A stretch of DNA of 24,390 bases from Clostridia bacterium (GCA_024404275.1 JAKSQG010000005.1:1-24390), one strand, 5' to 3'; counted from the stretch's first letter, positions 1 through 21,617 are shown. Numbers and translations are program-made. Notes: a model not told the origin generated them from the sequence alone.

Positions 1-1533
1 GACCTGAACTCCGCTGCCAACGGCTTGTTCCGTGTATTGCCGTCCGGCAGACTGCGTCCGCTCATCCGTTTGATTGCGTTTTTGGGTTACCGTAGCTGGA
101 AACCGGTGGAGCTGTTGGAGTATACCTGCGATATCACTGACAGTGAGAAGGAGCTGTCCGCTCAATTGAACAGCCTCAATACGGAGGGCTGGCTGGTGTG
201 GAATGAGGATGGTTACCTGATGCACCCCGTGATTGCGTAGAATCTGCGTCAGGAGCCGGGCGGCTGCGACGAGTATCCGAAGCTGTGGCAGAAGCTGAAC
301 AAAATGTTTGCGGAGCCCATGACTGAAAAAACGCAGGGCTTTGTACCGCAGGCCGAAAACCTGCTGCGCTATACCGCCAATCTGGACCGGACAGCGCTTT
401 CACTGATCATCGGGCTTGAACAAAGCGTCATGACCCGTCCCACGGGCAGCATTACTGATGATCTGCCCAAATTGCACCGCAAATGGCTTGATACCCATGA
501 GCATACGGCGGTGGATGAGATCGATTATCATATCATGCAGCTGCTGTGGGCGATACTGAGATCGCGCCCCGGGCAGTATCGTGACTCCGTGGAAATGCTG
601 AGCGCCTGTGAAGAAAAGGATCTTTTGAGCACTGCCAACTATTCGCTGCTGCTCAACGTACTGGAGGTTGGCGGCAAATATGCCGAACCGGAACAGCTGA
701 ACCTGCTGTTTGAACGGCTGCGGCCCGATGATGACAAACGGATGGTGGATTACTGCAACTTTCTTGGCGGCAAGCTGCGTGCTGTGGATCAGAATCAGCA
801 GCGTGCGGCGGAGGTGCTTCGCCAAGGGCGGGAGCTGATTGAAAAGCTCTGCCTGACGGGAACAGTGCAGGAGGCCGCCAACGATTCCCGCATGGCGTAT
901 ACGCTGGCGGATATGGGTCTGTGGTCGGAAACACTGCCGTTGATGCGCCGTGTGATGGACAACATGAAAACACGCGGTTATGCCGATGATTCGCCTACGG
1001 TGACCCCCATCCGCAGCACCTATTATTTTTTCCTCAGCAAGTGCGGGGAGTATCAGCAGACGCGAAAATAGCTTGGCGATCATCTGAAGCATGTGCTTGA
1101 GAAGGATGAACGTTTTGAAGCCGTCGTGAGGGCGTATACCTCCTATCTGCGCCTTCTGATGGATCACGATGAGTTTGAAGAGGGCGAAAAGATCGCCAGG
1201 AACCTGATTGCATACTGCCGCGGCTGCGTGAATTCAGACCCCGAATTGGAGGGCGAGGCCTTTCTGGCGGGCGGCCGGGTGCTGCTGCTGTGCAGTAAAC
1301 CGGCGGAAGCCATTGGCTTGCTGGCAGAGGCACAAGGCCTGTTTGAAAATGTGGACGAGGGCTCGGTTTTGCAATGCCGGTTCTACACTTCCCGCTGCCT
1401 TGCGGCACTGGGACATACTGAAAAGGCCTCTGCCATGCTGAAAAATGTGCACAATATGCTTCTGAAGCGGCACGAAGGCAACCGGAAACTGCTGACGCTG
1501 GTGGAGCAGGCAGAGGCTGAGGAAACAAAATAA
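1..1533 (+). CDS. 3' part of a large STAND/NTPase-like signalling protein: winged-helix-like segment followed by TPR-like helical repeats. The 5' end lies off-window. Read through two in-frame TAG codons (238-240, 1069-1071).
   Basis: Track ORFs 25-240 (open to position 1), 304-1071 and 1093-1533 are all in frame 1 and separated only by single TAG codons. There is no Shine-Dalgarno before ATG 304 or GTG 1093. Helical-repeat-like sequence continues across both junctions (..GWLVWNEDGYLMHPVIA[TAG]NLRQEP..; ..CGEYQQTRK[TAG]LGDHLKHVLEKDERF..). Final stop TAA 1531-1533. Under the standard code this is three fragments. Confidence 0.55.
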
Positions 1534-1558: not shown

Positions 1559-2593
1559 ATGAAAAAAGTATTGTCTTTGCTTCTGGGCCTGTTGCTGTTG
1601 TTTACCGTTGCCTGTGCCGATACGGTCTATGACCTGGATGGCGGTTTCCAAATCGCTCTGCCGGAAAACACCACGGTCTATTCCAACTGGTATTATGTTG
1701 ACAATGTGATGTTTTCTCTTACTGTGTACGAGTTGGCTGATTATGGTTACCAGCAGCAATGGCTGGACAGTTTGAAGGACACGGTGATGGAGACGCTGAC
1801 CGTGATGATGTTCGGAACAAATGACGGCTTTCAAAACGAAGAGATTGATGCCGGCATCCCCTGCGCTTCTTTCCAATACACCGAACAGGGATATGAATAC
1901 CGTATTGCACTGGCACTGAACGGAACAAAACTGCTGGCAGCGGTGATGACGGACAGTACTACGGGCAAATATCCCGATGAAGCAGTATGCCGCAGCATCC
2001 TGAATGCGATTTCTGTTCAAGCTCAGGAGAACGCGCAGACAAACACGCAGGCGAAAAACTATCTGACCGATCGTGGATTTTATCTTCAGAATGGGCCGCT
2101 GCTGGTGGACCTGTCTGAAGACGAGTATAACATCGTGTATCAGGATATGCCGTATGACAGCCTGTCCGTTCAGCGCAGCGGCTATGCGTACAACCTGATC
2201 GACAGTGCGCTCAGGATGGGCGAGGGCACGGACATGATGATCTGGCGCCTCAATGAAAATGGCCTGACCGGTGAAAATGCCATGGTTTATATCCGTGCCA
2301 AAGAGAAAAAATACGATGCTTCAGATGATTCCCGCAGGTTCAGCCCTGCCGACCTGAAGACGTTGGCAGACGCAATCGCCGAAGTGATGTCCGCTTCCGG
2401 CACATATGACATTCAGGAGATCAATGGTATTCCGTATATCATTTTTCCTTTCGCCGGCGACAATCAGCTTCGCAGCGTGGCGGTCATCAACGGCGGCTAT
2501 GTTTACATCTATGTGAAAAAGACGAATCCGCTGACCGCGGCAGATGTGGATTTCTTCTATACCGTGCTGGAGCACATTACAGTGGCCGATTGA
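1559..2593 (+). CDS. Putative lipoprotein / secreted protein of unknown function
   Basis: 344-aa ORF. GAAAGGAAA lies upstream of the ATG. N-terminal signal peptide MKKVLSLLLGLLLLFTVAC has a lipobox-like TVAC. Stop TGA, followed by an intrinsic terminator. Confidence 0.85.
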   Translation: MKKVLSLLLGLLLLFTVACADTVYDLDGGFQIALPENTTVYSNWYYVDNVMFSLTVYELADYGYQQQWLDSLKDTVMETLTVMMFGTNDGFQNEEIDAGIPCASFQYTEQGYEYRIALALNGTKLLAAVMTDSTTGKYPDEAVCRSILNAISVQAQENAQTNTQAKNYLTDRGFYLQNGPLLVDLSEDEYNIVYQDMPYDSLSVQRSGYAYNLIDSALRMGEGTDMMIWRLNENGLTGENAMVYIRAKEKKYDASDDSRRFSPADLKTLADAIAEVMSASGTYDIQEINGIPYIIFPFAGDNQLRSVAVINGGYVYIYVKKTNPLTAADVDFFYTVLEHITVAD

Positions 2594-2757: not shown

Positions 2758-3237
2758 GTGATGCTTGTGTCAGGAAAAAACGCCATGGACAAACCGAATA
2801 AACGTTTTTCGACCGATGAACTGACCAATGGTATTTTGCGTACGCGGGATTTTAAACGCTATCTGAACAGCCATGCCGAAGCTCTGCAGGAGGTTTCACT
2901 GCGGGAATATCTGGAGCAGCTCCTCCGTGAAAAGGGCTTGAAACGAGCGGAGGTGATTCAGCGTGCCAATCTGGACCGGGTGTTTGGATATCAGATTTTT
3001 GATGGACGCAAATCGCCCTCGCGGGACAAGGTACTGCAGCTGGCCATCGGGTTTGGCTTGAATTATTCATAGACCTGCGAACTTTTGCGCATCGCCCGAA
3101 AAACCGCCCTCTATGCCCGGCTCAAACGGGAGGCCATTCTGATTTACGCCATCGGGCATGGGCTTTCCGTGATGGAAACCCAGTATCTGCTGATGGAAGC
3201 CGAATTGACTCCTTTGGGACAGGAGAAGGACAGATGA
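2758..3237 (+). CDS. XRE-like helix-turn-helix transcriptional regulator, read through in-frame TAG 3070-3072
   Basis: Track ORF 2758-3072 ends at TAG inside the conserved C-terminal segment of this HTH family. The same frame continues TCELLRIARKTALYARLKREAILIYAIGHGLSVMETQYLLMEAELTPLG to TGA 3235-3237, which overlaps the kinase ATG 3234-3236 (ATGA). The start is uncertain (GTG 2758, ATG 2761 or ATG 2785). Confidence 0.72.
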
Positions 3238-4127
3238 AGGATTTTGATGTGGTGGCTTCCCTGCAGGAGGCGCTGAATGGCATCGAGGACCCGCTGCCGG
3301 AGGAAATTGCGGCGGACTGGGAAGCCATGGAATGCCTTGGGCACAGCGAAAGAGGGGAAACGCTTTTGCTGTACAGCAGGAAGAGTGCAGGGAAAGCGGT
3401 TCTGAAGCTGATGCAGGGAGAAAGCGATGATGCCGGTCCCGTGGAAAAACTGCAGATGCTTACGCATCCGGGTCTGCCAAAGGTGCTTCGTGCATGGAAG
3501 GATGGCGAAAGGCTGTGCATCCTGCGGGAGTATATTGAAGGAAGAACACTGGCAGATACAGAAGGTAACTTCTCCGAGTCAAAGGCAACGGATATCATCC
3601 TGCAGCTGTGTGATGTTCTGTCGTATCTGCATGGGCAAACGCCGCCGCTGATTCACCGGGATGTAAAGCCCGAAAACATTCTGCTGCGCGAGGATGGAAC
3701 GATCGCGCTCATTGATTTTGGTATTGCCCGCTTTTATAATGGACAGCACGAAAAAGATACACGTGTGATGGGAACGGAGCATTTTGCTCCGCCGGAGCAA
3801 TACGGCTTTCGTCAGACCGATTGCCGGTCGGATCTGTATGCGCTGGGCATGGTGCTGGGGTGGATGCTGACAGGCAGTGTACATCGTGAGGAATACGAAG
3901 CAATTGCCGACAGCAACCTGAAAAGAATCGTAAAAAAGTGCACGGCTTTTTCCCCCGAAGATCGCTTTTCTTCTGCTATAGAAGTAAAAAAAGCGCTGAG
4001 TCAACGGAAAAGCCCACGGAAGACGCTGATTGTGACGGCAGTGTGTTGGTCTGCCTTTTGCTGCTTGGAAGAATGCCGTTATTTGGGCAAAGCGGACCGA
4101 AACACATCTGCTTCACGGAACCGATGA
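3234..4127 (+). CDS. Hanks-type Ser/Thr protein kinase with a C-terminal hydrophobic segment
   Basis: Motifs HRDVKPENILL, IDFGIA and GTEHFAPPE. AGGAGAAGG lies upstream of the ATG. Stop TGA 4125-4127. The C-terminal tail after ~4040 may be out of frame (see the finding on the GT repeat). Confidence 0.9.
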   Translation: MKDFDVVASLQEALNGIEDPLPEEIAADWEAMECLGHSERGETLLLYSRKSAGKAVLKLMQGESDDAGPVEKLQMLTHPGLPKVLRAWKDGERLCILREYIEGRTLADTEGNFSESKATDIILQLCDVLSYLHGQTPPLIHRDVKPENILLREDGTIALIDFGIARFYNGQHEKDTRVMGTEHFAPPEQYGFRQTDCRSDLYALGMVLGWMLTGSVHREEYEAIADSNLKRIVKKCTAFSPEDRFSSAIEVKKALSQRKSPRKTLIVTAVCWSAFCCLEECRYLGKADRNTSASRNR

Positions 4128-4945
4128 TTGAGCAGGCGATCAGAAAAATGCTCGGCACCGGCAGCGAGTCCGTCCTGAACCGGGAGGAACTGGAAAAGGT
4201 CGAGGGGCTTTATATTTTCGGCGATGTGATCGCCATGAATGAAGATGAGTTTTATGAAGCGGCCAATCGTTGGTACGCCGGCGGCAGCAGGCTATATGGC
4301 ACAATCACGCGGCTGGATGATGTTGTACTTCTGCCAAATCTTCGACGGGTGATGATTGCCGCCAATGAGGTTGAGAATATCTCGCCTTTGTCTGCACTGA
4401 CCAAATTGGAAAAGGTGGAATTCAAGCATAACCGCATCAGCGACATTACGCCGCTGAAGGGGCTGAAGATGCTTTGTTCTGTGGGCTTGAACGACAACCC
4501 CGTGACCGATGTGACGGTGCTGCTGACGCTGCCGGAACTTCGTTATCTGGATTTGTGTGACGCCTCTGCTTATGATGCGGTTGGGTTGGCAGGGCTTCAT
4601 GATATGGAGCTGCTGGATATTTCCAATCGTACCGACAGCGGACGGTACCTTGGCACAAAACATATCCGTGATCTGAGGATGGGATGGACAAATCTGGACA
4701 GCCTGGACGCGCTTGCCGGGGTGATGGGGCTTGAAAGATTGAGCATTGAGCATACACGCATTACCAGTTTGGAAGGCATTGAACGCCATGCGGGACTGAC
4801 CTATCTGCGTATGTCCGGTTGTGAGGTGAAGAATCTGACGCCGCTTCTATTGCTTCCTGAACTGAAGACACTGGTCATTGACGGTGCCCGCCGGGGGGAT
4901 GTGGAAGTGCTGGGTGAAGTGCGTTTTGAGGTGCTGTATGAATGA
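4124..4945 (+). CDS. Leucine-rich-repeat (internalin-like) protein; possibly the detached ectodomain of the preceding kinase
   Basis: About 22-residue LRRs (..NRISDITPLKGLKMLCSVGLNDNPVTDVTVLLTLPELRYLDL..). ATG 4124 overlaps the kinase TGA (ATGA). The frame is open from 3938 and looks coding from ~4040. Stop TGA 4943-4945. Confidence 0.75.
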   Translation: MIEQAIRKMLGTGSESVLNREELEKVEGLYIFGDVIAMNEDEFYEAANRWYAGGSRLYGTITRLDDVVLLPNLRRVMIAANEVENISPLSALTKLEKVEFKHNRISDITPLKGLKMLCSVGLNDNPVTDVTVLLTLPELRYLDLCDASAYDAVGLAGLHDMELLDISNRTDSGRYLGTKHIRDLRMGWTNLDSLDALAGVMGLERLSIEHTRITSLEGIERHAGLTYLRMSGCEVKNLTPLLLLPELKTLVIDGARRGDVEVLGEVRFEVLYE

Positions 4946-6234: not shown

Positions 6235-6271
6235 AAAAACAGCAGGTCTTATCACAATGACCTGCTGTTTT
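6235..6271. terminator. Bidirectional intrinsic terminator between convergent genes
   Basis: AAAACAGCAGGTC (6236-6248) pairs perfectly with GACCTGCTGTTTT (6259-6271) across a 10-nt loop. A-run and T-run flanks serve both strands. Confidence 0.8.
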
Positions 6272-6295
6272 AATGCTTTTTGGTTCATTCGGCCA

Positions 6296-7714
6296 TCAAA
6301 GCGGCGGAATAGCGTCCAAAATGGTTTTTTCCAACGCTTCGCGGCCGTAGCTATCCACGGCAGCCTTGTTCTTTTCACCGTGGGTCAGGTTGCCGGCGCC
6401 GCCGATGCAGCCGCTGATACAGGCCATGCCTTCGATAAAGTTAGCGTCCAAGGCATTATGGGCTTTTTTGATAAGCGCCATGCGACACTCCTCAATACCG
6501 TCACAGACGCAGGCCTTCAGCTGGAAGTCATCCAGATGCTGTTCCTTCAGTCCTTCGGCAACGGCATCGCTCAGACCGCCGCTGCGGGCAAAAATGCGGC
6601 CGAAGTAGCTGGCGTTATTCAGCACATCCTCGGGCAGGGTGGTAATATCGATATCACGGCTGTCGAGCAGTGCCTGCAATTCTTCAAAGGTGATGACGGC
6701 ATCCACATAGGGTTTGACGTCTTCCAACTGTGCTTCGGCCTTTTTCGCGGTGCAGGGACCGATAAATACGATCTTGGCGGTTTCATCATGGTCCTTGATA
6801 TATTTGGCAAGGGTAGCCATGGGCGAGAGATTGTGAGAAATATAGGGCACCAGCGCCGGGAAGGCGGTTTTGACATAGCGGACAAAGGCCGGGCAGCAGG
6901 AGGAGGTCAGGAAGCCTTTTTCCACCAATTCCTTGGATTCCGCCTGGGCAACCATATCAGCGCCCAAAGCGGCTTCGATGACGGTATGGAAGCCCAGCTC
7001 CTTGATGCCGCTGATGACCTGTCCCAGCTTGGCATAATTGAGCTGGCTGCCGATGGCAGGAGCTACCAGGGCATAGACTTTGAATACGCTGTTGTCCTGG
7101 CTTTTTTTCAGCATATCGATCACATTGATGATAAAGGAACGATCCGTAATGGCACCAAAGGGGCACTGATACACACAGGCACCGCACTGAATGCATTTTT
7201 CATCATCGATCTTGGCAGCATTGTCATCATTGATGGAAATGGCCTTGATCTTGCAGGCGTTCTGGCAGGGACGCTTGCGGTTGACGATGGCGCTGTACGG
7301 ACACACCTTGGCGCACTGACCGCATTCCACACACTTGGATTTGTCAATGTGCGCTTCGTGATTGTGGTCAAAGGAGATAGCGCCGCGCTTGCAGACATCC
7401 TCGCAACGGTGGGCCAGACAGCCGCGGCAGGAATCGGTCACCTGATAGCCGACGGCAGGGCAGTCATCACAGGCGATATCAATGACTTGAATGATATTGT
7501 CTCCATTACCGCCTCCCATCGCCAGCTTGACGCGTTCAGCCAGGATGGCGCGTTCCTTGTACACGCAGCAGCGCATGGTGGGGACTTTGCCCGGCACGAT
7601 CATTTTGGGAATGTCCAGCACGTTTTCCAGCAGTGTGTCATTCCATGCCTGACGGGCGACTTCGCGCAGCACCTTGTATTTCAGATATTGTACCTTGGTA
7701 TCAAATTTGCGCAT
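6296..7714 (-). CDS. [FeFe] hydrogenase homologue with ferredoxin-like 4Fe-4S domains (HfsD-like)
   Basis: H-cluster motifs TSSCCPAF, GPCTAKKAE and EGMACISGCIGGAG. Several CxxCxxCxxxCP ferredoxin motifs. AAGGAG RBS. Stop TGA. Confidence 0.85.
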   Translation of the reverse strand: MRKFDTKVQYLKYKVLREVARQAWNDTLLENVLDIPKMIVPGKVPTMRCCVYKERAILAERVKLAMGGGNGDNIIQVIDIACDDCPAVGYQVTDSCRGCLAHRCEDVCKRGAISFDHNHEAHIDKSKCVECGQCAKVCPYSAIVNRKRPCQNACKIKAISINDDNAAKIDDEKCIQCGACVYQCPFGAITDRSFIINVIDMLKKSQDNSVFKVYALVAPAIGSQLNYAKLGQVISGIKELGFHTVIEAALGADMVAQAESKELVEKGFLTSSCCPAFVRYVKTAFPALVPYISHNLSPMATLAKYIKDHDETAKIVFIGPCTAKKAEAQLEDVKPYVDAVITFEELQALLDSRDIDITTLPEDVLNNASYFGRIFARSGGLSDAVAEGLKEQHLDDFQLKACVCDGIEECRMALIKKAHNALDANFIEGMACISGCIGGAGNLTHGEKNKAAVDSYGREALEKTILDAIPPL

Positions 7715-7723
7715 GCGTTCTCC

Positions 7724-8893
7724 TTAAAAATAGCTTACTTTGATTCGTTTACCCATTTTTTTGAGGGCTTGGGACAATTCTTCCACCAAATTCATTTTGA
7801 TGTTGAAGTTGATGGGCAGGTTGGGGTTCTGATGCGCCGGGTTGACGGCTCTGCCTACATAGAAATTGATGTCGGTGGCTTCTTCAAAAAGCAGACGGCT
7901 GATGAGGCAGGCACCGTCCTTGCCGTTGCTCCAGGTCTCATAACACAGGTTATCGCCCGTGTAATCCTTGGCGTATTCCACCACACGGTTGATGGTGATC
8001 ACGCCTTCCGTTACCAGATCGACGCCCTCCAGATAGGCAATGGGCGGAATGTCGCTGTCAAAGTCCAAAGAAGCCCTCAGGGGCTTGTTCAGCCATTTGG
8101 CGGCGATGGAGGAGGTGGTGCCGCCGCAGACGATGTGCTTTCCTTCCTTGGAGAAGAACAGGCTCATCATGCGGTCACCGTCATCACGGTTGCTGGGCGG
8201 TCCGAAGAGCAGATTCATGGGCACGCGCTTGCGGACACGGACCACACAGGAGGTGGCATCATCCCCGGGCTCGCCGCCATACAGCTCATTGCATTTATCC
8301 ACCAACAGGGTGGAAAGGTTCTTGGCGGTATAGCCGCACAGATTCATGGCCTCCATGAAGGGGATGATATCTTCCCGCTTCCAGCCGAAGTTATAGGCAA
8401 TGCCGATGCCTGCGTGGGGGCAGCCGTCGCTCATGGCGATAAAAACATCGTCTTCCTGCAGCCGGATGAGGGAACGGAAGATCTGTTTGCCGCCGATGGT
8501 GCTCTCTGTGCGTGGATATTCATAGTTTTCACCGTTGCGCAGCATGATGACCTGCGGGTTATCATACTGGATCAGCTCTGCCGTCTGATTGCGGATCAGG
8601 CGGATGATGGTGAAGGTGGAATAGGCGACGCCGCGGATGGAGCAGACGGGCAGCGTGGCGGCAATGGTTTCCACGCATTCCTCGATGGAAAGCCCGGCAG
8701 CCAGCATGGTGGAAATGATCTTGCTGGTCAGGGTGGACAGAATGCTGGCTTTGACACCGCTGCCAAGCCCATCTGCCAGCACGATGACGGTGGAGCCGTC
8801 TTCCTGTTCCACAATTTCCACATGATCGCCGCAAAGCTGCTCGCCGGCGTGATTGATGCTTTTGTAGCCGATATCACACGTCAGGTCATTCAT
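7724..8893 (-). CDS. SpoIIE/PP2C-family protein phosphatase (HfsC-like)
   Basis: N-terminal GDHVEIVEQEDGSTVIVLADGLGSGVKASILS and ..AMSDGCPHAG.., DDATSCVVRV are PP2C/SpoIIE-type motifs. The start overlaps the hydS stop by 8 nt (ATGAATGA). Stop TAA. Confidence 0.85.
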   Translation of the reverse strand: MNDLTCDIGYKSINHAGEQLCGDHVEIVEQEDGSTVIVLADGLGSGVKASILSTLTSKIISTMLAAGLSIEECVETIAATLPVCSIRGVAYSTFTIIRLIRNQTAELIQYDNPQVIMLRNGENYEYPRTESTIGGKQIFRSLIRLQEDDVFIAMSDGCPHAGIGIAYNFGWKREDIIPFMEAMNLCGYTAKNLSTLLVDKCNELYGGEPGDDATSCVVRVRKRVPMNLLFGPPSNRDDGDRMMSLFFSKEGKHIVCGGTTSSIAAKWLNKPLRASLDFDSDIPPIAYLEGVDLVTEGVITINRVVEYAKDYTGDNLCYETWSNGKDGACLISRLLFEEATDINFYVGRAVNPAHQNPNLPINFNIKMNLVEELSQALKKMGKRIKVSYF

Positions 8894-10562
8894 TGTTGAT
8901 GGACTCCTTCAGCTTTGAGAGGGCAATCTTGGTTTCGGCGGCAGTTTCACCCAGCAGACTGGCAATTTCCTGCACGATACGCATCTGTTTGTCGACGACC
9001 TTGTCGGCTACTTCGACCGTCTGGCGCCGGATGTCTTCCTTCTGCTGACGGGCAGCTTCTTCCTCGCTGACGTCACGCATAATGCACAGCAGCATACGTC
9101 CGCCCTCAGCGGGAACGATGGTCTGCTCCACGGTACAGTTGTATTCCGCCAGATAGGTGCGCTCGTTAAAGATACCGCGGCCGGAGTTTTTTACCTTCAT
9201 GAAGGGGATGGGGTCCAGAATGCGGACAACCTGATCTCCCAGCACGGCACTTTCGGAGCGCAGATTCAGGATCTTGCGGGCAGCGGGGTTGATCTGCTGC
9301 ACTTCCAGCTGATCGTTGAGCATCAGGATGCCGTTGGGGCTGTTGCGGGCAATGGTATCGCTGACGTTTTCCGCTTTTTCCATCAGGTAAGGCAGGCACA
9401 TGGAGGGCTCCGCCTTGCCCTGATAAATGGCGATGGCTTTTTCACGGCAGGTATTGTAGCCGCAGGAGCCGCAGTTCAGCTCCTGAGAGGGTTTGAACTT
9501 GCCCATTTCACGCAGAATATCGCGGATCTCAAATTCAGTGGGCAGGGCGGCGCGCTGCTCGATGGGGGCAAAATGCTTGCGCAGCTCCTGTGCTTCGGGC
9601 TGATCGATCTCAAAGTCCTTATCACCGGCGTAACGGGCGACAGCCAGATAATCCTTCACCGGGCTGTGACCGTATTTTTCCATCACGGGACCGCCGGCAC
9701 AACTGCCCACGCAAGCGCTCATCTCGATAAAGCAGCGATGGATCTTGCCCTGCTCGATCTCCTTCAGTGCGGCGATGCAGTTTTCAATACCATCGAAAGC
9801 GATATAGGTATAGCCCGGGGCATCCTGTGCCATGGTTTTCAGTACGCCGCCGGTGGTGGGAAAGAAACGTGCCAGACTATGTTCATCCGGCTGCTTTTCC
9901 TGACGAAGTTCAACGCCTTCCTTTTTAAGCCAGTTGGTCAGCTCTTCAAAGGTCAGCACCGCGTCAACGATGCCCTCGTAGTGCTCCGCTTCATCCTTCT
10001 TTGCCACGCAGGGACCGACAAAGACGGTCTTGGCGCCGGGAATACGGCGCTTGATGTCCTCACAGTGCGCCTGCATGGGGGAAAGTACATCCGCCAGATA
10101 GGGCAGCACACGGGGGAAATGCTTCTGAATGAGCAGGTTGATGGAGTGGCAGCAGGAAGAGATGACGATGTCACGGTTTTCTTCCTGCAGAATGCGCTCG
10201 TATTCCCGCTTTACAAGCGTAGCGCCCAAAGCGGTCTCTTCCACATCGTGGAAGCCCAGCTTTTTGAGCGCTTCCCGCATGGCTTCAATGCCCACACCAT
10301 CATAGTTGGCAACAAAGGACGGCGCCAGAGAGACGACCACCGGGGCGCCGCTCTGAATGAGAACCTTTGCCTTTTCGGTCTGGTCCACGATCTCCTTGGC
10401 ATTCTGCGGGCAGACGACAAAGCAATGACCGCAGAGGATGCACTCATTGTCGATGATGTGAGCCTGGTTGCCGGAAAAACGGATGGATTTTACCGGGCAG
10501 TGACGGATGCACTTATAGCAGTTTTTGCAGTTGGATTTTTTTAAAGTCAGGCAGTTTGGCAT
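8886..10562 (-). CDS. hydS: Putative sensory [FeFe] hydrogenase with C-terminal Cys motif and PAS domain (HydS / HfsB-like)
   Basis: N-terminal 2x[4Fe-4S] ferredoxin motifs. H-cluster motifs ISSCCHS, GPCVAKKDE and EMSACVGSCAGGP. CGSCGYNTCx16C motif, then a PAS-like segment (NSPNGILMLNDQLEVQQINPAARKIL..). Stop TGA. Confidence 0.85.
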   Translation of the reverse strand: MPNCLTLKKSNCKNCYKCIRHCPVKSIRFSGNQAHIIDNECILCGHCFVVCPQNAKEIVDQTEKAKVLIQSGAPVVVSLAPSFVANYDGVGIEAMREALKKLGFHDVEETALGATLVKREYERILQEENRDIVISSCCHSINLLIQKHFPRVLPYLADVLSPMQAHCEDIKRRIPGAKTVFVGPCVAKKDEAEHYEGIVDAVLTFEELTNWLKKEGVELRQEKQPDEHSLARFFPTTGGVLKTMAQDAPGYTYIAFDGIENCIAALKEIEQGKIHRCFIEMSACVGSCAGGPVMEKYGHSPVKDYLAVARYAGDKDFEIDQPEAQELRKHFAPIEQRAALPTEFEIRDILREMGKFKPSQELNCGSCGYNTCREKAIAIYQGKAEPSMCLPYLMEKAENVSDTIARNSPNGILMLNDQLEVQQINPAARKILNLRSESAVLGDQVVRILDPIPFMKVKNSGRGIFNERTYLAEYNCTVEQTIVPAEGGRMLLCIMRDVSEEEAARQQKEDIRRQTVEVADKVVDKQMRIVQEIASLLGETAAETKIALSKLKESINNE

Positions 10563-10566
10563 GGCG

Positions 10567-10806
10567 TTACACCCTTGCTTTGATTACATTTTCGAAAAAG
10601 GTGGGAACAGTCTCGGGGGAAACGGAAAAGAATTCACCGTCTACCGTGACGCAAACGCCCTGCTGGCATTTGCCCATGCAGAATGTGCCGCCCAGCTCGA
10701 TCTTGTCACTGAGGTTTTCCTTCGCAATCAGCGCCTGAAGCTGCTCCACCACGGGACGAGAGCCTTTGATGTGGCAGGAAGAACCGATACAAACCGTAAC
10801 CTTCAT
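10567..10806 (-). CDS. Small thioredoxin-like [2Fe-2S] ferredoxin (HfsA-like)
   Basis: 79 aa with four Cys in VCIGSSCH ... FCMGKC. GGAG RBS 9 nt upstream of the ATG. Stop TAA 4 nt before the hydS ATG. Confidence 0.75.
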   Translation of the reverse strand: MKVTVCIGSSCHIKGSRPVVEQLQALIAKENLSDKIELGGTFCMGKCQQGVCVTVDGEFFSVSPETVPTFFENVIKARV

Positions 10807-10832
10807 CTTTTTTGTCTCCTTTTTGCGATGTT

Positions 10833-10877
10833 TTATAAAAACAGGAAAAGGAGGGGTGATGGTTCCCTCCGTTTTCC
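10833..10877 (-). terminator. Intrinsic terminator/attenuator hairpin between the APH-fold kinase gene and the hfsA-like gene
   Basis: Minus strand: GGAAAA(C)GGAGGG-AACCATCAC-CCCTCCTTTTCC followed by TGTTTTTAT. It lies only ~35 nt upstream of the hfsA-like ATG. Confidence 0.7.
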
Positions 10878-10908
10878 TTCATCATACGAGTCAGAAAATC
10901 AATGATTT

Positions 10909-11658
10909 TTAATGATATTCCACCACGTTGGCCCAGGACAGCAGGAATTCTCTTTCCTTTTCCTTGCCCTTGACGGACTGGCTGGCGGCGACGATGGGCA
11001 TCCACTTCTGCACATACTGCAGGGGGGTGCCGCTCTTTTCACAGAACAGCTTCAGGTATTCCTTGGCGCCGTCGATATCGCCGTTCAGCCAGAACAGCAG
11101 ATAGGTACGGGCAACATCGGCGGAGGCGTTGCCCTGCGTGACATGGCTCCAGTCGATCACGTAAGGGGTGCCGTCCTCGCTGATGATCACGTTGGAGGGC
11201 CAGAAATCGCCGTGACACACTTTGCTGTGATTGGGCATACCCTCCAGACGGGCGTGAAGATCAAAACGGGTGGTGGCATCCAGGTCAGCCTGGCTGATCT
11301 TGCGCTCCATCTTGTCCCTGAGGCGGTTCAGATGGGAACAGCTCTTGCTCTGGATCTCCAGCTGCAGATCCACAAACTGATTGAGGTATTTGTCCTTGTT
11401 GTCCGGGTCTTCTTTCATCAGCTGGGACAGGGTTTTGCCCTTGATGAACTCAGAGATGATGGCCCATTTTCCATCGATCATGGTGACACCCAGGAGCTTG
11501 GGAATGTGCAGCCCGGTCTCTTCAATGCGCGCCTGGTTGAGCGCTTCGTTGAGGATGTCGGCTTTGGAGTGACTTTCATCGAACACCTTGATGCAGCGGT
11601 CACCGTCACGGTAAATGGTTTTGTCGTTGCGTACGGCAATAACGCGATCCAGATTCAT
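10909..11658 (-). CDS. Aminoglycoside-phosphotransferase/choline-kinase-fold (APH-like) kinase
   Basis: CHGDFWPSNVII and YVIDWSHV (HxDxxxxN / DxS Brenner-type motifs). GAAGGAGG lies 8 nt before ATG 11658. The track ORF starts 7 codons earlier. Stop TAA. Confidence 0.8.
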   Translation of the reverse strand: MNLDRVIAVRNDKTIYRDGDRCIKVFDESHSKADILNEALNQARIEETGLHIPKLLGVTMIDGKWAIISEFIKGKTLSQLMKEDPDNKDKYLNQFVDLQLEIQSKSCSHLNRLRDKMERKISQADLDATTRFDLHARLEGMPNHSKVCHGDFWPSNVIISEDGTPYVIDWSHVTQGNASADVARTYLLFWLNGDIDGAKEYLKLFCEKSGTPLQYVQKWMPIVAASQSVKGKEKEREFLLSWANVVEYH

Positions 11659-11675
11659 CTTTTTTGTCCTCCTTC

Positions 11676-14378: not shown

Positions 14379-14438
14379 ACTGTTCCTCCTCTTGCTTGTA
14401 CATAGCCCAAGCATTGCGTTGAAAGGTTTTTCGTTCCT

Positions 14439-14477
14439 TTCGATACGCATTATATCGAATCGGAAATCCTTTGGGAA
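14439..14477 (-). promoter_or_regulatory. Candidate adhE promoter (TTCCCA-17-TATAAT) overlapped by a 7-bp dyad
   Basis: Minus strand: -35-like TTCCCA (14472-14477) and -10 TATAAT (14449-14454). Dyad TTCGATA-N7-TATCGAA spans 14439-14459 and covers the -10. Confidence 0.35.
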
Positions 14478-14525
14478 TAACCAAAAAAGCATAACCGTTA
14501 TATCATAATCGATTATACGAGATCG

Positions 14526-14577
14526 AAAAAAACAAATAAGAACAGCCTTGCAGTCGATCGAATCGGCAGCAAGGCTG
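14526..14577 (-). terminator. Intrinsic terminator after the LysR-family gene
   Basis: Minus strand: CAGCCTTGC-17 nt loop-GCAAGGCTG (14543-14577) followed by TTCTTATTTGTTTTTTT. Confidence 0.75.
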
Positions 14578-14591
14578 ATAAGGGAAGGCGA

Positions 14592-17420: not shown

Positions 17421-18590
17421 GTGAACTATCGGGTTACGGATGGGGTGCTGACGCTGTTTCCGCAAGGCCGGATCGACTCCGGCAATGCAGACAGCACGGA
17501 AAAGGAAATGCGGGCTGTGTGCGTGGCAAACGCCGTCCCGGGACTCATACTTGACCTTGAAAAACTGGCGTATATCTCCAGCGCCGGGCTTCGGGTGGTG
17601 CTGCGGCTGCGCAAGGACTATCCTGAAATGAAAATGATCAATGCTTCCGCCGAAGTATATGACATTCTGGATATGACCGGTTTTACCGAAATGATCCCGG
17701 TGAGCAAGGCGTATCGCCGCCTGAGCATTGAGGGATGCGAGATGATCGGTCAGGGGGCAAACGGCACGGTATACCGTCTGGATGGGGAGACCGTGATCAA
17801 GGTGTACCGCCATGCCGACAGCTTGCCGGAAATCCGGAGAGAAAGAGAACTTGCCCGCAAGGCATTCGTGGCAGGTCTGCCGACTGCTATCCCCTATGAT
17901 GTGGTACGTGTCGGGGAGGGCTATGGCTCGGTGTTTGAAATGCTGAATGCCGGTTCAGTGGCCGATATCCTCAAAAAGGAGCCATAGCGACTGCCGGAGT
18001 GCGCGCACATGATGACCACACTGCTGAAGAAGATCCATGCTACTGAGTTAAAGCCCGGGGAATTTCCCGATGCAAGGCAGACAGCCCTGGACTGGGCGGA
18101 TTTTTTGCAGGACCATCTTCCGCGTGAGCAGTATCAGAAGCTGCGTGGACTGATCGAGGCAGTGCCGCGGGATACGCATGTGCTGCATGGGGATTGTCAT
18201 GTGAAGAATGTGATGATCCAGAATGGGGAGACGCTGCTGATTGACATGGACACCCTGTGTCAGGGGCATCCGGTGTTTGAGTTTGCGGCGATCTATATCG
18301 ATTATCAGGGATACGGCGAACTGAATTCCGAAGATGTCACGACATTTTTCGGCATCCCTCATGAAATCTGCGCGGAATTGATGCGTTTGATCATTGTAGA
18401 GTATTTTGAACTGAAAGAGGAAGCCGCCTACCGCGCAATACTGGACAAGGCGCGCGTAATCGGCTATGCACGGCTGATGCGCCGTACCATCCGCCGGATG
18501 GGGCATACGGAACAAGGAAAGCAGCTGGCTGCCTACTACGCAGAGCGGCTGACGGAGCTGCTGGACTGTGTGGATTCACTGACATTTTAA
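17421..18590 (+). CDS. STAS (anti-sigma-antagonist-like) domain fused to an APH/protein-kinase-fold domain, read through in-frame TAG 17985-17987
   Basis: Track ORFs 17421-17987 and 18009-18590 share a frame. STAS motif LAYISSAGLRVVL. Kinase N-lobe IGQGANGTVYRL..VIKVY lies before the TAG. Catalytic HGDCHVKNVMI and LIDMD lie after it. GTG start with GGGAAGGGAG upstream. Stop TAA. Confidence 0.7.
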
Positions 18591-18607
18591 AGAAAGAAGG
18601 ATCGAAT

Positions 18608-18904
18608 ATGAACATTACCAAGAATCAGAACGGCGAACTGCTTGAAATGGCGCTGGAAGGACGACTGGATACGGTGACCTCTCCCAAGCTTGAAAAGGAA
18701 CTGAGCACTTCTCTGAACGGCATCAAGGAATTGGTGTTCGATTTTGCCAAGCTTGAGTATGTTTCCTCCGCCGGTCTGCGTGTACTGCTGACGGCGCAGA
18801 AGGTGATGAATACACAGGGCAGCATGAAGGTGTGCCATGTGAATGAAAACATCATGGAAGTATTTGAAATTACCGGCTTTGCGGATGTGCTGACCATTGA
18901 ATAA
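18608..18904 (+). CDS. STAS-domain protein (RsbV/SpoIIAA-like anti-sigma factor antagonist)
   Basis: 98 aa with LEYVSSAGLRVLL (phosphorylatable-Ser motif). GAAGGA upstream of the ATG. Stop TAA. Confidence 0.9.
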   Translation: MNITKNQNGELLEMALEGRLDTVTSPKLEKELSTSLNGIKELVFDFAKLEYVSSAGLRVLLTAQKVMNTQGSMKVCHVNENIMEVFEITGFADVLTIE

Positions 18905-18946
18905 GCAGCGGGACAACTCGTAGCATCGGCAAGGGAGATATGGAGA

Positions 18947-19762
18947 ATGACGACGGAAGAACTGCTGAAAACGGTGGAAGAGATTCATGTGCCTTTGGAG
19001 GACACCTACCTGAATGTCATCCGCTTTGGACGTGGAAAAAAAGTGCTTGCGTTGCTTTCGGGTGTCAGCCTGTGCGGTCTGGAGGGAGCGGGAGCAGGCG
19101 TTGCGGCTGCTTACGCCGATTTTGCGGAGGAGTATACGGTTTATCTGTTCGACCGCAAAAAGCTGCTGCCAAAGGGCTATCAGGTGGCGGACATGGCGGA
19201 GGATGTTTATCGGGTGCTCTGCACCTTTGGCATTCAGGAAGCCGACGTGTACGGCGTCTCCCAGGGCGGCATGATGGGACTCAGCCTGGCACTGGCGCAC
19301 CCCGGTCTGGTGCGGAAGCTGGCACTGTGTTCTACCCAGGCTCGGGCGGGAAGCGTCATGCGTTAGACCGTTGCCGAGTGGCTGCAATATGCCAGACGAG
19401 GGGACACAGCAGGCATTCAGCGTTGCTTTGCGGAAAAAGTCTACTCACCGGCTTACCGTGAAAAGTACGCATCGGCTTTCCGGGCTATGGAGCAGCAGGG
19501 ATCGGCTGAAGACTGCGCCCGTTTTGTGGTATAGGCGGAGGCATGCCTCACTTTTTGCGTTTATGAAGAGCTGGACCGGATCCATTGTCCCGCGCTGGTG
19601 CTGGCGGATGTGAATGACCGTGTGATCGACGTGTCCTCTGCCCGGGAGCTGGCGCATGGGTTGAACTGCCCGCTGCAGTTGTATGATCAATACAGCCACG
19701 CGGTGTTTGATGAAGCGCCCGAAGTAAAACAGCGGGTGCTGAACTTCCTGCGGCAGGAATGA
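18947..19762 (+). CDS. Alpha/beta-fold hydrolase (RsbQ-like size and context), read through two in-frame TAG codons (19364-19366, 19532-19534)
   Basis: Track ORF 18947-19366 carries the nucleophile elbow YGVSQGG. The same frame continues through both TAGs to ..CPALVLADVNDRVI..LYDQYSHAVFDEAPE..FLRQE and TGA 19760-19762. That supplies the Asp and His of a catalytic triad. The merged protein is 271 aa. Confidence 0.75.
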
Positions 19763-19826
19763 ATTCCGCGGCGGAGCGTTTAAGCAACGGTGCGGATAGA
19801 ACAATGCGTTACAGGAGTTGATCTTT

Positions 19827-21617
19827 ATGAAGCTGCCGCTGCAACGGCATCCAAAGGAATCCTACAGTACCATGACGCGGGCAGTACTGTGGCAGAATGA
19901 AATAGAAGCCAACCGACTGACCACGGTTTTTATGTGCATCTGTTCGGCGGTCATGGCACTCAGTATGCTGCTGACGGCTGTTGGTATTTTTACGGAGAAT
20001 GCGCAGACAGTGTATACCACGGGCATCGCGACGATCGTGTGGCATATGCTGCCGTGCCTGGTGAGCTTTCGATACAAATACGCAAAGCCGTGGCTGAAGA
20101 ACCTGCTGCTGGCGGGGTTGATTCTGGGACAGGCACGATTGGACTGCGGGCTGGGTTTCAATACGGCACTTTCCATACTGATTCCGGTTGTGTTCAGTAC
20201 GCGGTATTACTCCCGAAAGTTTACGCTTTCCGTGGCTGCCATTACGACCGTGGTGTTTTCTGTCACGACCTATCTGGGCGCTGCGACGGGCTTTACCCCG
20301 GTGGATAAAAATATTCTTCTGGAAGCGTCCCGGTATGCGCATGATGTCATGATGACCAGCTTTCTTCCCAAGTGGTTTTTATTTGCGGTCATCTCGGCTG
20401 TGTGCGCGGAGGTTGCCCACTGGGGGCGTGCTATGGTTGAAAAGCAGGCCGTCATCAGTCAGGAGCATAGCCGTGTGGAAACGGAGCTGCATACGGCAAC
20501 CCAGATTCAGTTGAAATCGCTTCCCGATGTGAAAACGCTGTGCGAAGGACATGAGGCTCCCTTTGAACTGGCGACCAGCATCCTTCCGGCCAAAGAGGTC
20601 GGCGGCGATTTTTACGATTTCTTCTATGTTGACCCAACGCACCTGGCATTGGTCATTGCAGATGTTTCCGGCAAAGGCGTGCCGGCAGCGCTGTTTATGA
20701 TGGTTTCTAAAATCCTGCTGGATAACAGCGCTTCCGCAGGGCGAACGCCCGGCAAGGTGCTGACGATGGTCAACCATCAGCTTTGCGAAAAAAACATCAT
20801 TGACATGTTTGTGACAGTGTGGCTGGGCATCATCGACTTGACCACCGGCGAAATTGTCAGTGCCAACGCGGGACATGAGAACCCCATCATTTGTCGTAAG
20901 GACGGCACTGTGGAAGTCATCCGTACCAAGCACGGCATGGTGCTGGGCGGCATGGAAGGCATGCGTTACCGGGATGAAACCCTTCAGCTGCACCCCGGCG
21001 ATACGCTGTTTGTGTATACAGACGGCATCCCCGAAGCGCACAACAGCGCCGCGCAGATGTATGGCATGGAACGACTGGTTTCGGTGCTGACAGGCAAAAC
21101 ACAGATGAATGCGCAGGCCCTTGTGGACTTGGTGAAGCAGGATGTGAATGCTTTTGCCGGTTAGGCACCGCCGTTTGACGACTCGACCATGCTGGCGATT
21201 CGCCTGAATGGCCTTGTGAAGCGGGAGGGACTGCAGATTCGTCCCGACACGGCATCGGTCAGCACCGTGCAGGAGTATGTTGCGCAGGCAATGGAGCAAG
21301 CCGACATTCCCATGAAGCAGGCCACCAAGGTCAACATCGCATTGGATGAAATGTACAGCAACATTGTGCATTACAGCGGAGCGGGCTGGGCAGAGGTGAT
21401 CTGCCGGGCTGACAAAAGCGGGGTCACGCTCATCTTGCGGGATAACGGCGTGCCGTTCGATCCGCTGCAGAATGCCGCCCCTGACATCAATCAGAGCGCG
21501 GAAGAGCGCCGCATCGGCGGCCTTGGCGTGTTTATGACCCGCAAGATGATGGACGAGATGTGCTACCGCTATGCGGACGGATGCAATGAACTGACTATGA
21601 CGCTGAAGATCAGCTGA
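19827..21617 (+). CDS. Membrane-anchored PP2C (RsbU/SpoIIE-type) phosphatase fused to an RsbW/SpoIIAB-like HATPase domain, read through in-frame TAG 21162-21164
   Basis: Track ORFs 19818-21164 and 21189-21617 share a frame. N-terminal multi-TM region. PP2C motifs EVGGDFYDFF, ADVSGKGVPAALFM and VYTDGIPEA lie before the TAG; [TAG]APPFDDSTMLAIRL follows it. Then HATPase N-box DEMYSNIV, DNGVPFDP and GGLGVFM. AGGAG lies 9 nt before ATG 19827. Stop TGA. Confidence 0.75.

What the first reader, a model, noticed from the sequence alone, without database searches (positions are those of the whole stretch)
3070..3237. HTH regulator: TAG in mid-domain, and the read-through frame ends in an ATGA overlap with the kinase start
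The track ORF stops at TAG 3070-3072 after ..LQLAIGFGLNYS. The same frame continues TCELLRIARKTALYARLKREAILIYAIGHGLSVMETQYLLMEAELTPLGQEKDR. From memory, this matches the usual C-terminal half of this XRE-like family (..L.LE[E/Q]TQ.LL..AG...LY.R..RD.II..). It terminates at TGA 3235-3237, which overlaps the kinase ATG 3234-3236. An ATGA junction is a typical translational-coupling arrangement and only makes sense if ribosomes reach it, that is, if the TAG is read through. Otherwise 160 nt of apparently coding sequence would be an untranslated spacer.
Basis: partly seen in the sequence, partly recalled or inferred. Interest (0 to 1): 0.8.

Follow-up and report, generated by a model that had tools for sequence, protein, structure and literature searches.

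The report
TAG read as amino acid, bacterium
The stop codon TAG in the middle of this small regulator gene is very probably translated, most likely as glutamate, and it is one of at least seven such in-frame TAGs in this stretch of a ruminant-gut Clostridia genome, which points to a change of the genetic code not so far reported for any bacterium.

Summary
TAG 3070-3072 interrupts a 150-aa HTH gene (2785-3237). The frame runs on to TGA 3235-3237, which overlaps the kinase ATG 3234.

Homologues show the gene is meant to be continuous:
- Thirteen full-length homologues, and 141 representatives of the wider family, span the TAG.
- 121 of the 141 have Glu at that column.

The TAG is real and old:
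- It occurs in four independent assemblies.
- Between two of them (dS about 0.4), the 54 codons after the TAG have dN/dS 0.04, the same as the codons before it.

The TAG is not an isolated case:
- The window holds seven in-frame TAGs in five genes (NB-ARC/TPR NTPase, HTH, STAS-APH, hydrolase, SpoIIE-HATPase).
- In the STAS-APH gene and the hydrolase, one Pfam domain crosses the TAGs.
- No credible gene in the window ends in TAG.
- Relatives carry further TAGs of their own. Every in-frame stop in the lineage is TAG.
- Eight of about fifteen sites align with Glu, including every strongly conserved column.

Best explanation: this lineage decodes UAG as a sense codon, probably Glu. The tRNA, the state of RF1 and the protein product were not observed. 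The papers searched report no bacterial UAG reassignment.

The parts
2785..3237 (+). Complete HTH regulator gene (150 codons, TAG at codon 96). It belongs to a large family of 140-150 aa HTH proteins.
   Evidence: (weak HTH_31 match, residues 39-92).
3070..3072 (+). In-frame TAG at a family-conserved Glu (GAG in the sister sequences L084 and L085).
   Evidence: Column composition is E 121/141, D 7, Q 5. TAG is present in the window, L001, L002 and L003. Sister sequences have GAG.
3073..3234 (+). C-terminal half of the HTH protein, translated only if the TAG is decoded.
   Evidence: dN/dS 0.043 against L001 (12 synonymous, 2 non-synonymous). Codon-usage score is coding-like, 0.27. Synonymous changes occur in codons +2 and +3 right after the TAG.
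3234..3237 (+). ATGA overlap of the HTH stop (TGA) with the kinase start (ATG).
   Evidence: Conserved in L001 and L003 and in L084.
3234..4945 (+). Ser/Thr kinase with a transmembrane segment and leucine-rich repeats. In this window it is broken by a frameshift near 4037-4045. It is intact in L001 (570 aa) and L085 (572 aa).
1..1533 (+). 3' part of an NB-ARC/TPR (STAND) NTPase gene with in-frame TAGs at 238-240 and 1069-1071.
   Evidence: Homologues have Glu at both columns.
17421..18590 (+). STAS + APH-like kinase gene with an in-frame TAG at 17985-17987.
   Evidence: A single APH domain (residues 109-292) spans the TAG. L087 has an intact 389-aa orthologue. The column is E6/D2.
18947..19762 (+). 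Alpha/beta hydrolase gene with in-frame TAGs at 19364-19366 and 19532-19534.
   Evidence: A single Abhydrolase_1 stretch (residues 76-258) spans both TAGs. The L086 orthologue has E and L at these positions.
19818..21617 (+). SpoIIE phosphatase + HATPase gene with an in-frame TAG at 21162-21164.
   Evidence: Thousands of homologues of 580-630 aa span it. P0023 is a copy that ends at the TAG, 99% identical, from another assembly.

Best explanation
In this lineage of ruminant-gut Clostridia, UAG is not a terminator. It is a rare sense codon (about 1 per 1000 codons) that is decoded efficiently, most probably as glutamate. The HTH gene 2785-3237 therefore gives one 150-aa protein, with the decoded residue at a position where 86% of the family has Glu. 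The ribosome ends at TGA 3235-3237, on top of the kinase start codon.

Shown here:
- The gene is continuous in homologues.
- The TAG is shared by independent assemblies.
- Purifying selection acts after the TAG.
- There are many in-frame TAGs in unrelated genes, and no TAA or TGA ones.
- No gene in the window ends in TAG.
- Conserved TAG columns are Glu.

Inferred, not shown:
- A tRNA with anticodon CUA and a tRNA-Glu body reads the codon.
- It is charged by the non-discriminating GluRS that Firmicutes commonly use (established knowledge, not checked for this organism). That enzyme already accepts either C36 or G36.
- Release factor 1 is lost or no longer acts on UAG.
For: (1) Continuity. Thirteen homologues of 149-150 aa at 64-85% identity cover 99-100% of the merged protein. 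In 141 family representatives the TAG column is E 121, D 7, Q 5, K 2.

(2) The TAG is real. It occurs in the window, in NCBI MAG GCA_045599485.1 (L001) and in two Logan assemblies (L002, L003). The SpoIIE TAG is also seen in a second assembly, P0023.

(3) Selection. For the window against L001, dS is 0.38-0.49. Omega is 0.058 before the TAG and 0.043 after it. Segments of the STAND gene give 0.06-0.09.

(4) The pattern is general.
- The window has seven in-frame TAGs in five genes.
- L001 has five TAGs at positions where the window has none. Four of them lie in one NB-ARC/TPR gene whose homologues are single proteins of 892-1005 aa.
- L002, L084 and L086 carry further TAGs.
- One Pfam domain spans the TAG in four genes.
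- tblastn with curated proteins found only TAG among the in-frame stops of the lineage.
- In the lineage, TAG is followed by coding-like sequence in 8 of 10 cases, against 4 of 37 for TAA and TGA (Fisher p = 6e-5).
- None of 16 curated genes in the window ends in TAG.

(5) Identity of the residue.
- Glu dominates at 8 of about 15 sites, and at every strongly conserved one: the HTH site, the GYLMHPVIA-E-T motif (5 of 5), L001-2606 (E4/D1), window-1069 (E in L001 plus 4 of 5), 17985 (E6/D2), 19364, L001-3551, and L080 AdhE (E in 42 of 46).
- GAG makes up only 20% of the codons one mutation away from TAG. The binomial p was 0.004 when computed on 7 of 12 sites, before the last sites were added.

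(6) Efficiency. A gene with four TAGs cannot yield product through leaky read-through (inference).

(7) Plausibility of the tRNA. A chromosomal tRNA with anticodon CUA and a Glu-type anticodon arm exists on a Firmicutes-like metagenome contig (L088), beside tRNA-Gln and a 16S gene.
Against: - No protein, ribosome-profiling or tRNA evidence exists for this organism. No tRNA gene lies in any locus of the lineage.
- Only about 85 kb of lineage sequence was available.
- Not all sites are Glu. Two align with Gln (in close relatives only), two with Leu, one with Asn and one with Thr, and one is variable. Decoding could therefore be Gln, or ambiguous.
- The window also has one true frameshift, in the kinase, so some gene decay or assembly error does occur.
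- L088 is not linked to this lineage, and its tRNA has two acceptor-stem mismatches and a modest score (40.8 bits).
- The nearest relatives by the APH protein (L009, L011) use TAG as a normal stop. The trait is therefore narrow and its boundaries are not mapped.
Confidence: 0.8

Rival explanations
1. Ambiguous decoding. The organism keeps RF1 but carries an amber suppressor tRNA (or relies on near-cognate tRNAs), so that UAG is partly read through and partly terminates.
For: This rival accounts for the same in-frame TAGs. TAGs are absent from the highly conserved, probably highly expressed genes at 6296-15518, as expected if decoding is costly. The residues aligned to TAG are not uniform: E, Q, L, N and T all occur.
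Against: One gene carries four TAGs and another two, which requires efficient decoding. No gene in the window uses TAG to terminate. Conserved columns are consistently Glu.
Confidence: 0.1
2. Pyrrolysine. UAG is read by tRNA-Pyl, as in Pyl-using Firmicutes or the archaea with a genome-wide Pyl code.
For: UAG is the Pyl codon. Genome-wide UAG-to-Pyl is reported for archaea (Kivenson et al., as cited, and the preprint listed). Methylamines occur in the gut (general knowledge).
Against: The TAGs sit in regulators, a hydrolase and an NTPase, at columns where Glu is conserved. They are not in methyltransferases. No pyl gene or tRNA-Pyl lies in about 85 kb of lineage sequence, which is a weak argument. 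The one CUA tRNA found elsewhere (L088) has a normal T-loop and D-loop, unlike tRNA-Pyl.
Confidence: 0.04
3. Gene-specific programmed read-through of the HTH TAG, used to regulate the ratio of short to long product and the coupling to the kinase.
Against: Six other in-frame TAGs lie in four unrelated genes of the same window. The TAGs share no sequence context. No unusual RNA structure follows the TAG (z = -0.77).
Confidence: 0.02
4. Nonsense mutation. The HTH gene is a pseudogene, or a truncated 95-aa protein, and 3073-3233 is a decaying remnant.
For: TAG is one G-to-T change from the GAG of sister sequences. The adjacent kinase carries a frameshift in this window.
Against: The TAG persisted while the two lineages diverged to dS about 0.4, with omega 0.043 downstream. 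The same holds for several other genes. All in-frame stops are TAG and none is TAA or TGA.
Confidence: 0.02
5. Split gene. Two separate polypeptides are made, the second restarting at TTG 3085.
For: A TTG lies 4 codons after the TAG.
Against: The codons between the TAG and the TTG change only synonymously between the window and L001 (TGC/TGT, GAA/GAG). No family member is split. Re-initiation cannot account for four TAGs in one NTPase gene, or for TAGs inside single folded domains.
Confidence: 0.01
6. Sequencing or assembly artefact.
For: The material comes from metagenome assemblies. One frameshift is present in the window.
Against: The same TAG occurs in four independent assemblies from different samples and pipelines, and the SpoIIE TAG occurs in two.
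Confidence: 0.01

Closest known systems
UGA reassignment in bacteria (code 4, UGA to Trp; code 25, UGA to Gly)
   Same: A stop codon becomes a sense codon across a whole lineage. It shows up as in-frame stops in unrelated genes, and the codon is no longer used to terminate.
   Different: A different codon (UAG, not UGA), hence a different release factor (RF1, not RF2) and a different amino acid. According to the papers read, every known bacterial stop reassignment involves UGA. The genome here is not AT-rich (54% G+C), and nothing suggests it is reduced.
TAG to Gln recoding in gut phages (code 15: crAss-like and Lak phages)
   Same: UAG is the codon read as sense, by a suppressor tRNA, in a gut ecosystem.
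   Different: Those are phages that switch code during infection of hosts with the standard code. Here the genes are chromosomal (AdhE, hydrogenase, penicillin-binding protein) and syntenic with about 80 Clostridia genomes. The window has no match among phage records. The aligned residue is Glu rather than Gln.
Genome-wide UAG to pyrrolysine in archaea (Kivenson et al., as cited)
   Same: UAG is read as sense throughout the genome of a prokaryote, and this is hard to detect because coding density hardly changes.
   Different: That case is archaeal and needs tRNA-Pyl, PylS and Pyl biosynthesis. Here the organism is a bacterium and the conserved columns are Glu.
UAR to Glu nuclear codes of eukaryotes (Blastocrithidia; peritrich ciliates, from my own knowledge)
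   Same: The same apparent meaning, UAG = Glu, read by a tRNA-Glu with a changed anticodon.
   Different: These are eukaryotes, where one release factor (eRF1) recognises all stops and UAA is reassigned as well. Here TAA remains the commonest stop (8 of 16 curated genes in the window).
Laboratory amber suppression and RF1-deleted E. coli (supE; C321.deltaA, listed)
   Same: UAG is decoded by a CUA-anticodon tRNA or by near-cognate tRNAs once RF1 no longer competes.
   Different: Those are engineered or single-mutant strains. Here the state appears fixed in nature and old enough for new TAG codons to have arisen in many genes.

Membership tests
Lineage-wide stop-codon reassignment (alternative genetic code) | The codon occurs in frame in many unrelated genes that are continuous in relatives. 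| tested here: met
   There are seven TAGs in five genes of the window. L001, L002, L084 and L086 carry further TAGs. Full-length homologues or a single Pfam domain span them.
Lineage-wide stop-codon reassignment (alternative genetic code) | Only that codon is affected; the other stops do not occur in frame. | tested here: met
   Every in-frame stop in lineage sequences is TAG. TAG is followed by coding-like sequence in 8 of 10 cases, against 4 of 37 for TAA and TGA.
Lineage-wide stop-codon reassignment (alternative genetic code) | The codon is no longer used to end genes. | tested here: inconclusive
   None of 16 curated genes in the window ends in TAG, but the wider family uses TAG rarely anyway, at about 10% of stops, so p is about 0.03-0.19. 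In L084, two TAGs near gene ends are followed by TGA, one after 1 codon and one after 25. Whole genomes are needed.
Lineage-wide stop-codon reassignment (alternative genetic code) | One amino acid is consistently aligned to the codon at conserved columns. | tested here: met
   Glu is found at all strongly conserved columns (121 of 141; 5 of 5; E4/D1; E6/D2; 42 of 46). Weakly conserved columns vary.
Lineage-wide stop-codon reassignment (alternative genetic code) | A cognate tRNA (anticodon CUA) is present in the genome. | not testable with these tools
   No tRNA gene lies in the lineage loci. The only lead is a Glu-type tRNA(CUA) on an unrelated contig, L088.
Lineage-wide stop-codon reassignment (alternative genetic code) | Loss or change of the release factor that reads the codon (RF1). 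| not testable with these tools
   No whole genome could be read.
Pyrrolysine decoding | tRNA-Pyl and pylSBCD are present, and UAG occurs in methylamine methyltransferases. | not testable with these tools
Indirect evidence is against it: TAGs lie at conserved Glu positions of unrelated proteins.
Gene-specific programmed stop-codon read-through | It is confined to particular genes and has a conserved context or downstream structure. | tested here: not met
   There are about fifteen sites in more than ten genes with no common context. The fold z-score is -0.77.
HTH regulator family of 140-150 aa (XRE/HTH_31-like N-terminus, conserved C-terminal half) | An N-terminal helix-turn-helix. | tested here: inconclusive
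   The HTH_31 match is below the Pfam cut-off (E = 0.0015, 19.3 bits against 27). Membership of the sequence family itself is clear (E = 1e-79 to 1e-19).
HTH regulator family of 140-150 aa (XRE/HTH_31-like N-terminus, conserved C-terminal half) | A C-terminal half with the motif L-x-h-[ED]-E-T-Q-x-L-L ... LY.R..RD..I, and a total length of about 145 aa. | tested here: met
   Met when the TAG is read as a residue. The profile matches positions 1-149 and the motif columns are conserved.

The most novel reading that the evidence does not exclude
This is the first natural bacterial lineage in which the amber codon UAG has been captured as a sense codon for glutamate. The codon would be read by a tRNA-Glu-derived tRNA(CUA) charged by the non-discriminating GluRS, with RF1 lost. 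That would be a fourth kind of bacterial genetic code, hidden in ruminant-gut Clostridia because the codon is rare and coding density is hardly affected.
Probability: 0.5. Interest if true: 0.95.

Novelty: new variant of a known kind. Interest (0 to 1): 0.88.

Why it matters
According to the surveys I read, every natural stop-codon reassignment known in bacteria concerns UGA. Those surveys are Shulgina & Eddy 2021, the gTranslate preprint of 2026, the Microb Genom 2026 paper on Actinomycetota, and Melnykov's 2026 screen of about 2.7 million assemblies.

- A free-living gut bacterium that reads UAG as an amino acid would show that the RF1-dependent codon can also be captured in bacteria.
- It would offer a natural counterpart to RF1-deleted laboratory strains.
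- It would provide a natural, possibly orthogonal, tRNA(CUA) and synthetase relationship for genetic-code engineering.
- It would affect which phages and plasmids can be expressed in this host.

On the practical side, standard annotation splits or truncates these genes. Public databases already hold the 103-aa and 445-aa fragments P0014-16 and P0023. Proteomes and pseudogene counts for such MAGs are therefore wrong.

Tried and rejected
**Automated screens for stop junctions spanned by homologues.** All were dominated by alignments in antisense and shifted frames. The antisense of Leu CTA against CTC, CTG and CTT imitates TAG against E, Q and K. The antisense of Ser TCA imitates TGA against G and R. 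The TAA and TGA read-through controls gave more 'sites' than TAG. I discarded these results. In their place I used tblastn with curated proteins and a codon-usage frame model.

**My first gene map for 18587-19800 was wrong.** I had taken the minus-strand ORF 18587..19387. The codon model and an orthologue show a STAS gene and a hydrolase on the plus strand.

**Source and neighbours.**
- Looking up the window's own contig by exact protein found nothing.
It returned only relatives at 88% identity or less, none from the TAG lineage.

**Search for the tRNA.**
- No tRNA gene lies in the lineage loci.
- One metagenome scan for a Glu-type CUA anticodon arm gave a single hit that I cannot link to this lineage.
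- The same pattern in viral contigs gave 22 matches, none of them a tRNA(CUA).

**Other checks.**
- The SpoIIE TAG column is too variable to say which residue is inserted.
- No RNA structure signal follows the HTH TAG.
- I considered mobile-element or phage origin and rejected it.
- I considered a modified-base or systematic G-to-T artefact and rejected it, because independent assemblies share the TAG and the sites have no common context.

Full report
**1. The observation**

- The HTH ORF ends ...LQLAIGFGLNYS at TAG 3070-3072.
- The same frame stays open for 54 more codons, to TGA 3235-3237.
- That TGA shares ATGA with the ATG (3234-3236) of a Ser/Thr kinase gene.
- Homologues begin at MDKPNK, so the real start is ATG 2785 and the merged product has 150 residues.

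**2. Is the gene continuous in relatives?**

Yes.
- A search with the merged protein returned 13 proteins of 149-150 aa at 64-85% identity that cover 99-100% of it.
- It also returned more distant proteins of 141-142 aa, and three clusters of 103-aa proteins at 94-99% identity that stop exactly at the TAG.
- An exhaustive profile search found 4744 representatives of the family. They are typically 140-150 aa long and match both halves.
- In an alignment of 141 of these, the TAG column is Glu in 121, Asp in 7 and Gln in 5.
- The sister sequences L084 and L085 have GAG at this codon.

**3. Is the TAG real, and is the downstream part still a gene?**

The 103-aa fragments come from an NCBI MAG (GCA_045599485.1, locus L001) and from two Logan assemblies (L002, L003). 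All have TAG at the same codon and an intact frame after it.

The window and L001 have diverged to dS 0.38-0.49, yet selection is the same on both sides of the TAG:

| Stretch | Synonymous | Non-synonymous | dN/dS |
|---|---|---|---|
| Codons before the TAG | 25 | 6 | 0.058 |
| 54 codons after the TAG | 12 | 2 | 0.043 |

- Eleven of the 14 differences after the TAG fall at third codon positions.
- Read in the other two frames, the same stretch gives dN/dS 1.4-1.9.
- Codons +2 and +3 after the TAG differ only synonymously, which argues against a restart at TTG 3085.
- A pseudogene, an artefact and a split gene are therefore all unlikely.

**4. The TAG is not alone**

All long ORFs that end in TAG are either antisense to genes supported by Pfam, or they continue in frame. 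The in-frame TAGs of the window are:

| Position | Gene | Evidence that the gene is continuous |
|---|---|---|
| 238-240 and 1069-1071 | NB-ARC/TPR NTPase | See below |
| 3070-3072 | HTH regulator | Sections 2 and 3 |
| 17985-17987 | STAS + APH kinase-like | One APH domain crosses it; L087 has an intact 389-aa orthologue |
| 19364-19366 and 19532-19534 | Alpha/beta hydrolase | One Abhydrolase_1 match crosses both; L086 has an intact orthologue |
| 21162-21164 | SpoIIE + HATPase | Thousands of full-length homologues; P0023 ends at the same TAG in another assembly |

L001 has TAGs of its own.
- Four lie in the NTPase gene, which starts upstream of the window. Its Walker A motif follows directly after the second TAG. 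Five homologues of 892-1005 aa cover 92-97% of it.
- One more lies in the orthologue of window gene 1559..2593.
- L002, L084 and L086 add further sites. In L086 these fall in a lipase-YhhN fusion, a metallo-beta-lactamase fold and a Fer4_5 domain.

Two tests compare TAG with the other stops.
- tblastn with curated proteins found TAG, and never TAA or TGA, as the in-frame stop within the lineage.
- I trained a codon-usage model on curated genes. It separates coding frames (0.22-0.48 per codon) from the other five frames (0.06 or less). With it, TAG is followed by coding-like sequence in 8 of 10 cases in the lineage, against 4 of 37 for TAA and TGA (p = 6e-5).
- None of the 16 curated genes of the window ends in TAG.
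- The closest relatives found with the APH protein (L009, L011) use TAG as an ordinary stop, so the trait is confined to a narrower lineage.

**5. Which amino acid?**

Residues aligned to the TAG sites:

| TAG site | Aligned residues |
|---|---|
| HTH (3070) | E in 121 of 141 |
| Window-238 / L001-3476 | E in 5 of 5, in the motif GYLMHPVIA-E-T |
| L001-2606 | E in 4, D in 1 |
| Window-1069 | E in L001 and in 4 of 5 homologues |
| L001-3551 | E in the window |
| 17985 | E in 6, D in 2 |
| 19364 | E |
| L080 AdhE | E in 42 of 46 |
| Two sites, compared with close relatives only | Q |
| Two sites | L (L or Q at one of them) |
| One site | N |
| One site | T |
| One site | Variable |

- GAG makes up only 20% of the codons one mutation away from TAG. 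AAG and TAY are as common, yet they never appear. The binomial p was 0.004 when computed on 7 of 12 sites.
- Glu is therefore the best reading, Gln is second, and mixed decoding is not excluded.

**6. Mechanism**

- No shared sequence context and no RNA structure accompany the TAGs, so decoding must be a property of the translation apparatus.
- Genes with two or four TAGs require efficient decoding.
- I infer a tRNA(CUA) with a Glu identity, and loss of RF1 action on UAG. Neither could be tested, because no tRNA gene lies in the lineage loci and whole genomes could not be read.
- A metagenome scan for a Glu-type anticodon arm carrying CUA gave one hit, contig Ga0209723_1014892 (L088). The tRNA(CUA) lies next to tRNA-Gln(CUG), an acyl-CoA dehydrogenase gene, a YunB-like sporulation gene and a 16S rRNA gene.
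- That tRNA has an ordinary T-loop and D-loop, so it is not tRNA-Pyl. Such tRNAs therefore exist on Firmicutes-like chromosomes. It is not linked to this lineage, however, and its acceptor stem has two mismatches.
- From established knowledge, most Firmicutes lack GlnRS. Their non-discriminating GluRS charges both tRNA-Glu (C36) and tRNA-Gln (G36). That makes tolerance of A36 plausible, and a Glu-type body should escape the amidotransferase. This step is inference.

**7. Comparison with what is known**

- The papers I read state that all bacterial stop reassignments involve UGA, and that genome-wide UAG recoding is known only for archaea (Pyl) and for phages (Gln).
- A 2026 screen of about 2.7 million assemblies lists no bacterial TAG reassignment.
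- The window is chromosomal. It is syntenic with about 80 Clostridia MAGs from ruminant and other guts and has no phage match. Its only plasmid match is a 70.7% hit of the hydrogenase cluster to a Ruminococcus albus megaplasmid.

**8. Verdict**

- The underlying cause is most likely a lineage-wide reading of UAG as a sense codon, probably Glu.
- This rests on comparative evidence from about 85 kb of sequence. The tRNA, RF1 and the protein product remain to be examined.

Noticed in passing
window 4030-4050 (kinase gene 3234-4945): The kinase-LRR gene is broken by a frameshift. Where L001 reads GTG CCG GTC TGC, the window reads GTG TGTTG GTC TGC (5 nt in place of 3). The result is two ORFs, 3234..4127 and 3938..4945. 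L001 (570 aa) and L085 (572 aa) are intact. This is either a real inactivation in this strain or an assembly error.
   Followed up: partly
window 238-240, 1069-1071, 17985-17987, 19364-19366, 19532-19534, 21162-21164: Six further in-frame TAGs lie in four other genes (NB-ARC/TPR NTPase, STAS-APH, alpha/beta hydrolase, SpoIIE-HATPase). Each is spanned by homologues or by a single Pfam domain.
   Followed up: yes
L088 3161-3233 (-), JGI contig Ga0209723_1014892: A tRNA with anticodon CUA and a tRNA-Glu-like anticodon arm and D-arm lies immediately 3' of tRNA-Gln(CUG), about 1.2 kb from a 16S rRNA gene, on a Firmicutes-like contig. It has G1.A72 and A7.C66 mismatches. ARAGORN labels it tRNA-Pyl only because of the anticodon. 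Its relation to the window's lineage is unknown.
   Followed up: partly
L080 318-320 (AdhE 3' end) and L006 7833-7835: Two isolated in-frame TAGs occur in more distant relatives. One is in AdhE of L080, at a column that is Glu in 42 of 46 homologues. The other is in the hydrogenase-like gene of L006, at a Lys conserved in 55-74 homologues. The first fits the Glu pattern. The second looks like a plain nonsense mutation or an error.
   Followed up: partly
L084 732-734 and 8985-8987; L085 887-889: In relatives of the HTH locus, TAGs at apparent gene ends are followed by TGA. In L084 this happens after 25 codons and after 1 codon. In L085 a double TGA follows after 1 codon. This would be expected if TAG does not terminate there either.
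   Followed up: no
window 6257-8899 (+), 11664-14405 (+), 18587-19387 (-): Very long ORFs (up to 880 aa) lie antisense to real genes. They are spurious by Pfam and by the codon-usage score. They mislead any rule based on the longest ORF, and they misled my first gene map.
   Followed up: yes
window 6296-10562 and 17421-21617: The window is rich in partner-switching and sensory parts. These are two [FeFe]-hydrogenase-like proteins (one with a PAS-like match) flanking a SpoIIE phosphatase, then STAS-APH, a single-domain STAS (18608-18904) and SpoIIE-HATPase. The in-frame TAGs fall in these regulatory genes and not in AdhE or the hydrogenase-like genes.
   Followed up: no
TAG sites listed: The base after the in-frame TAG is A (5), C (5), G (6) or T (1) at 17 distinct sites, so T is rare. 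The sample is too small to interpret.
   Followed up: no
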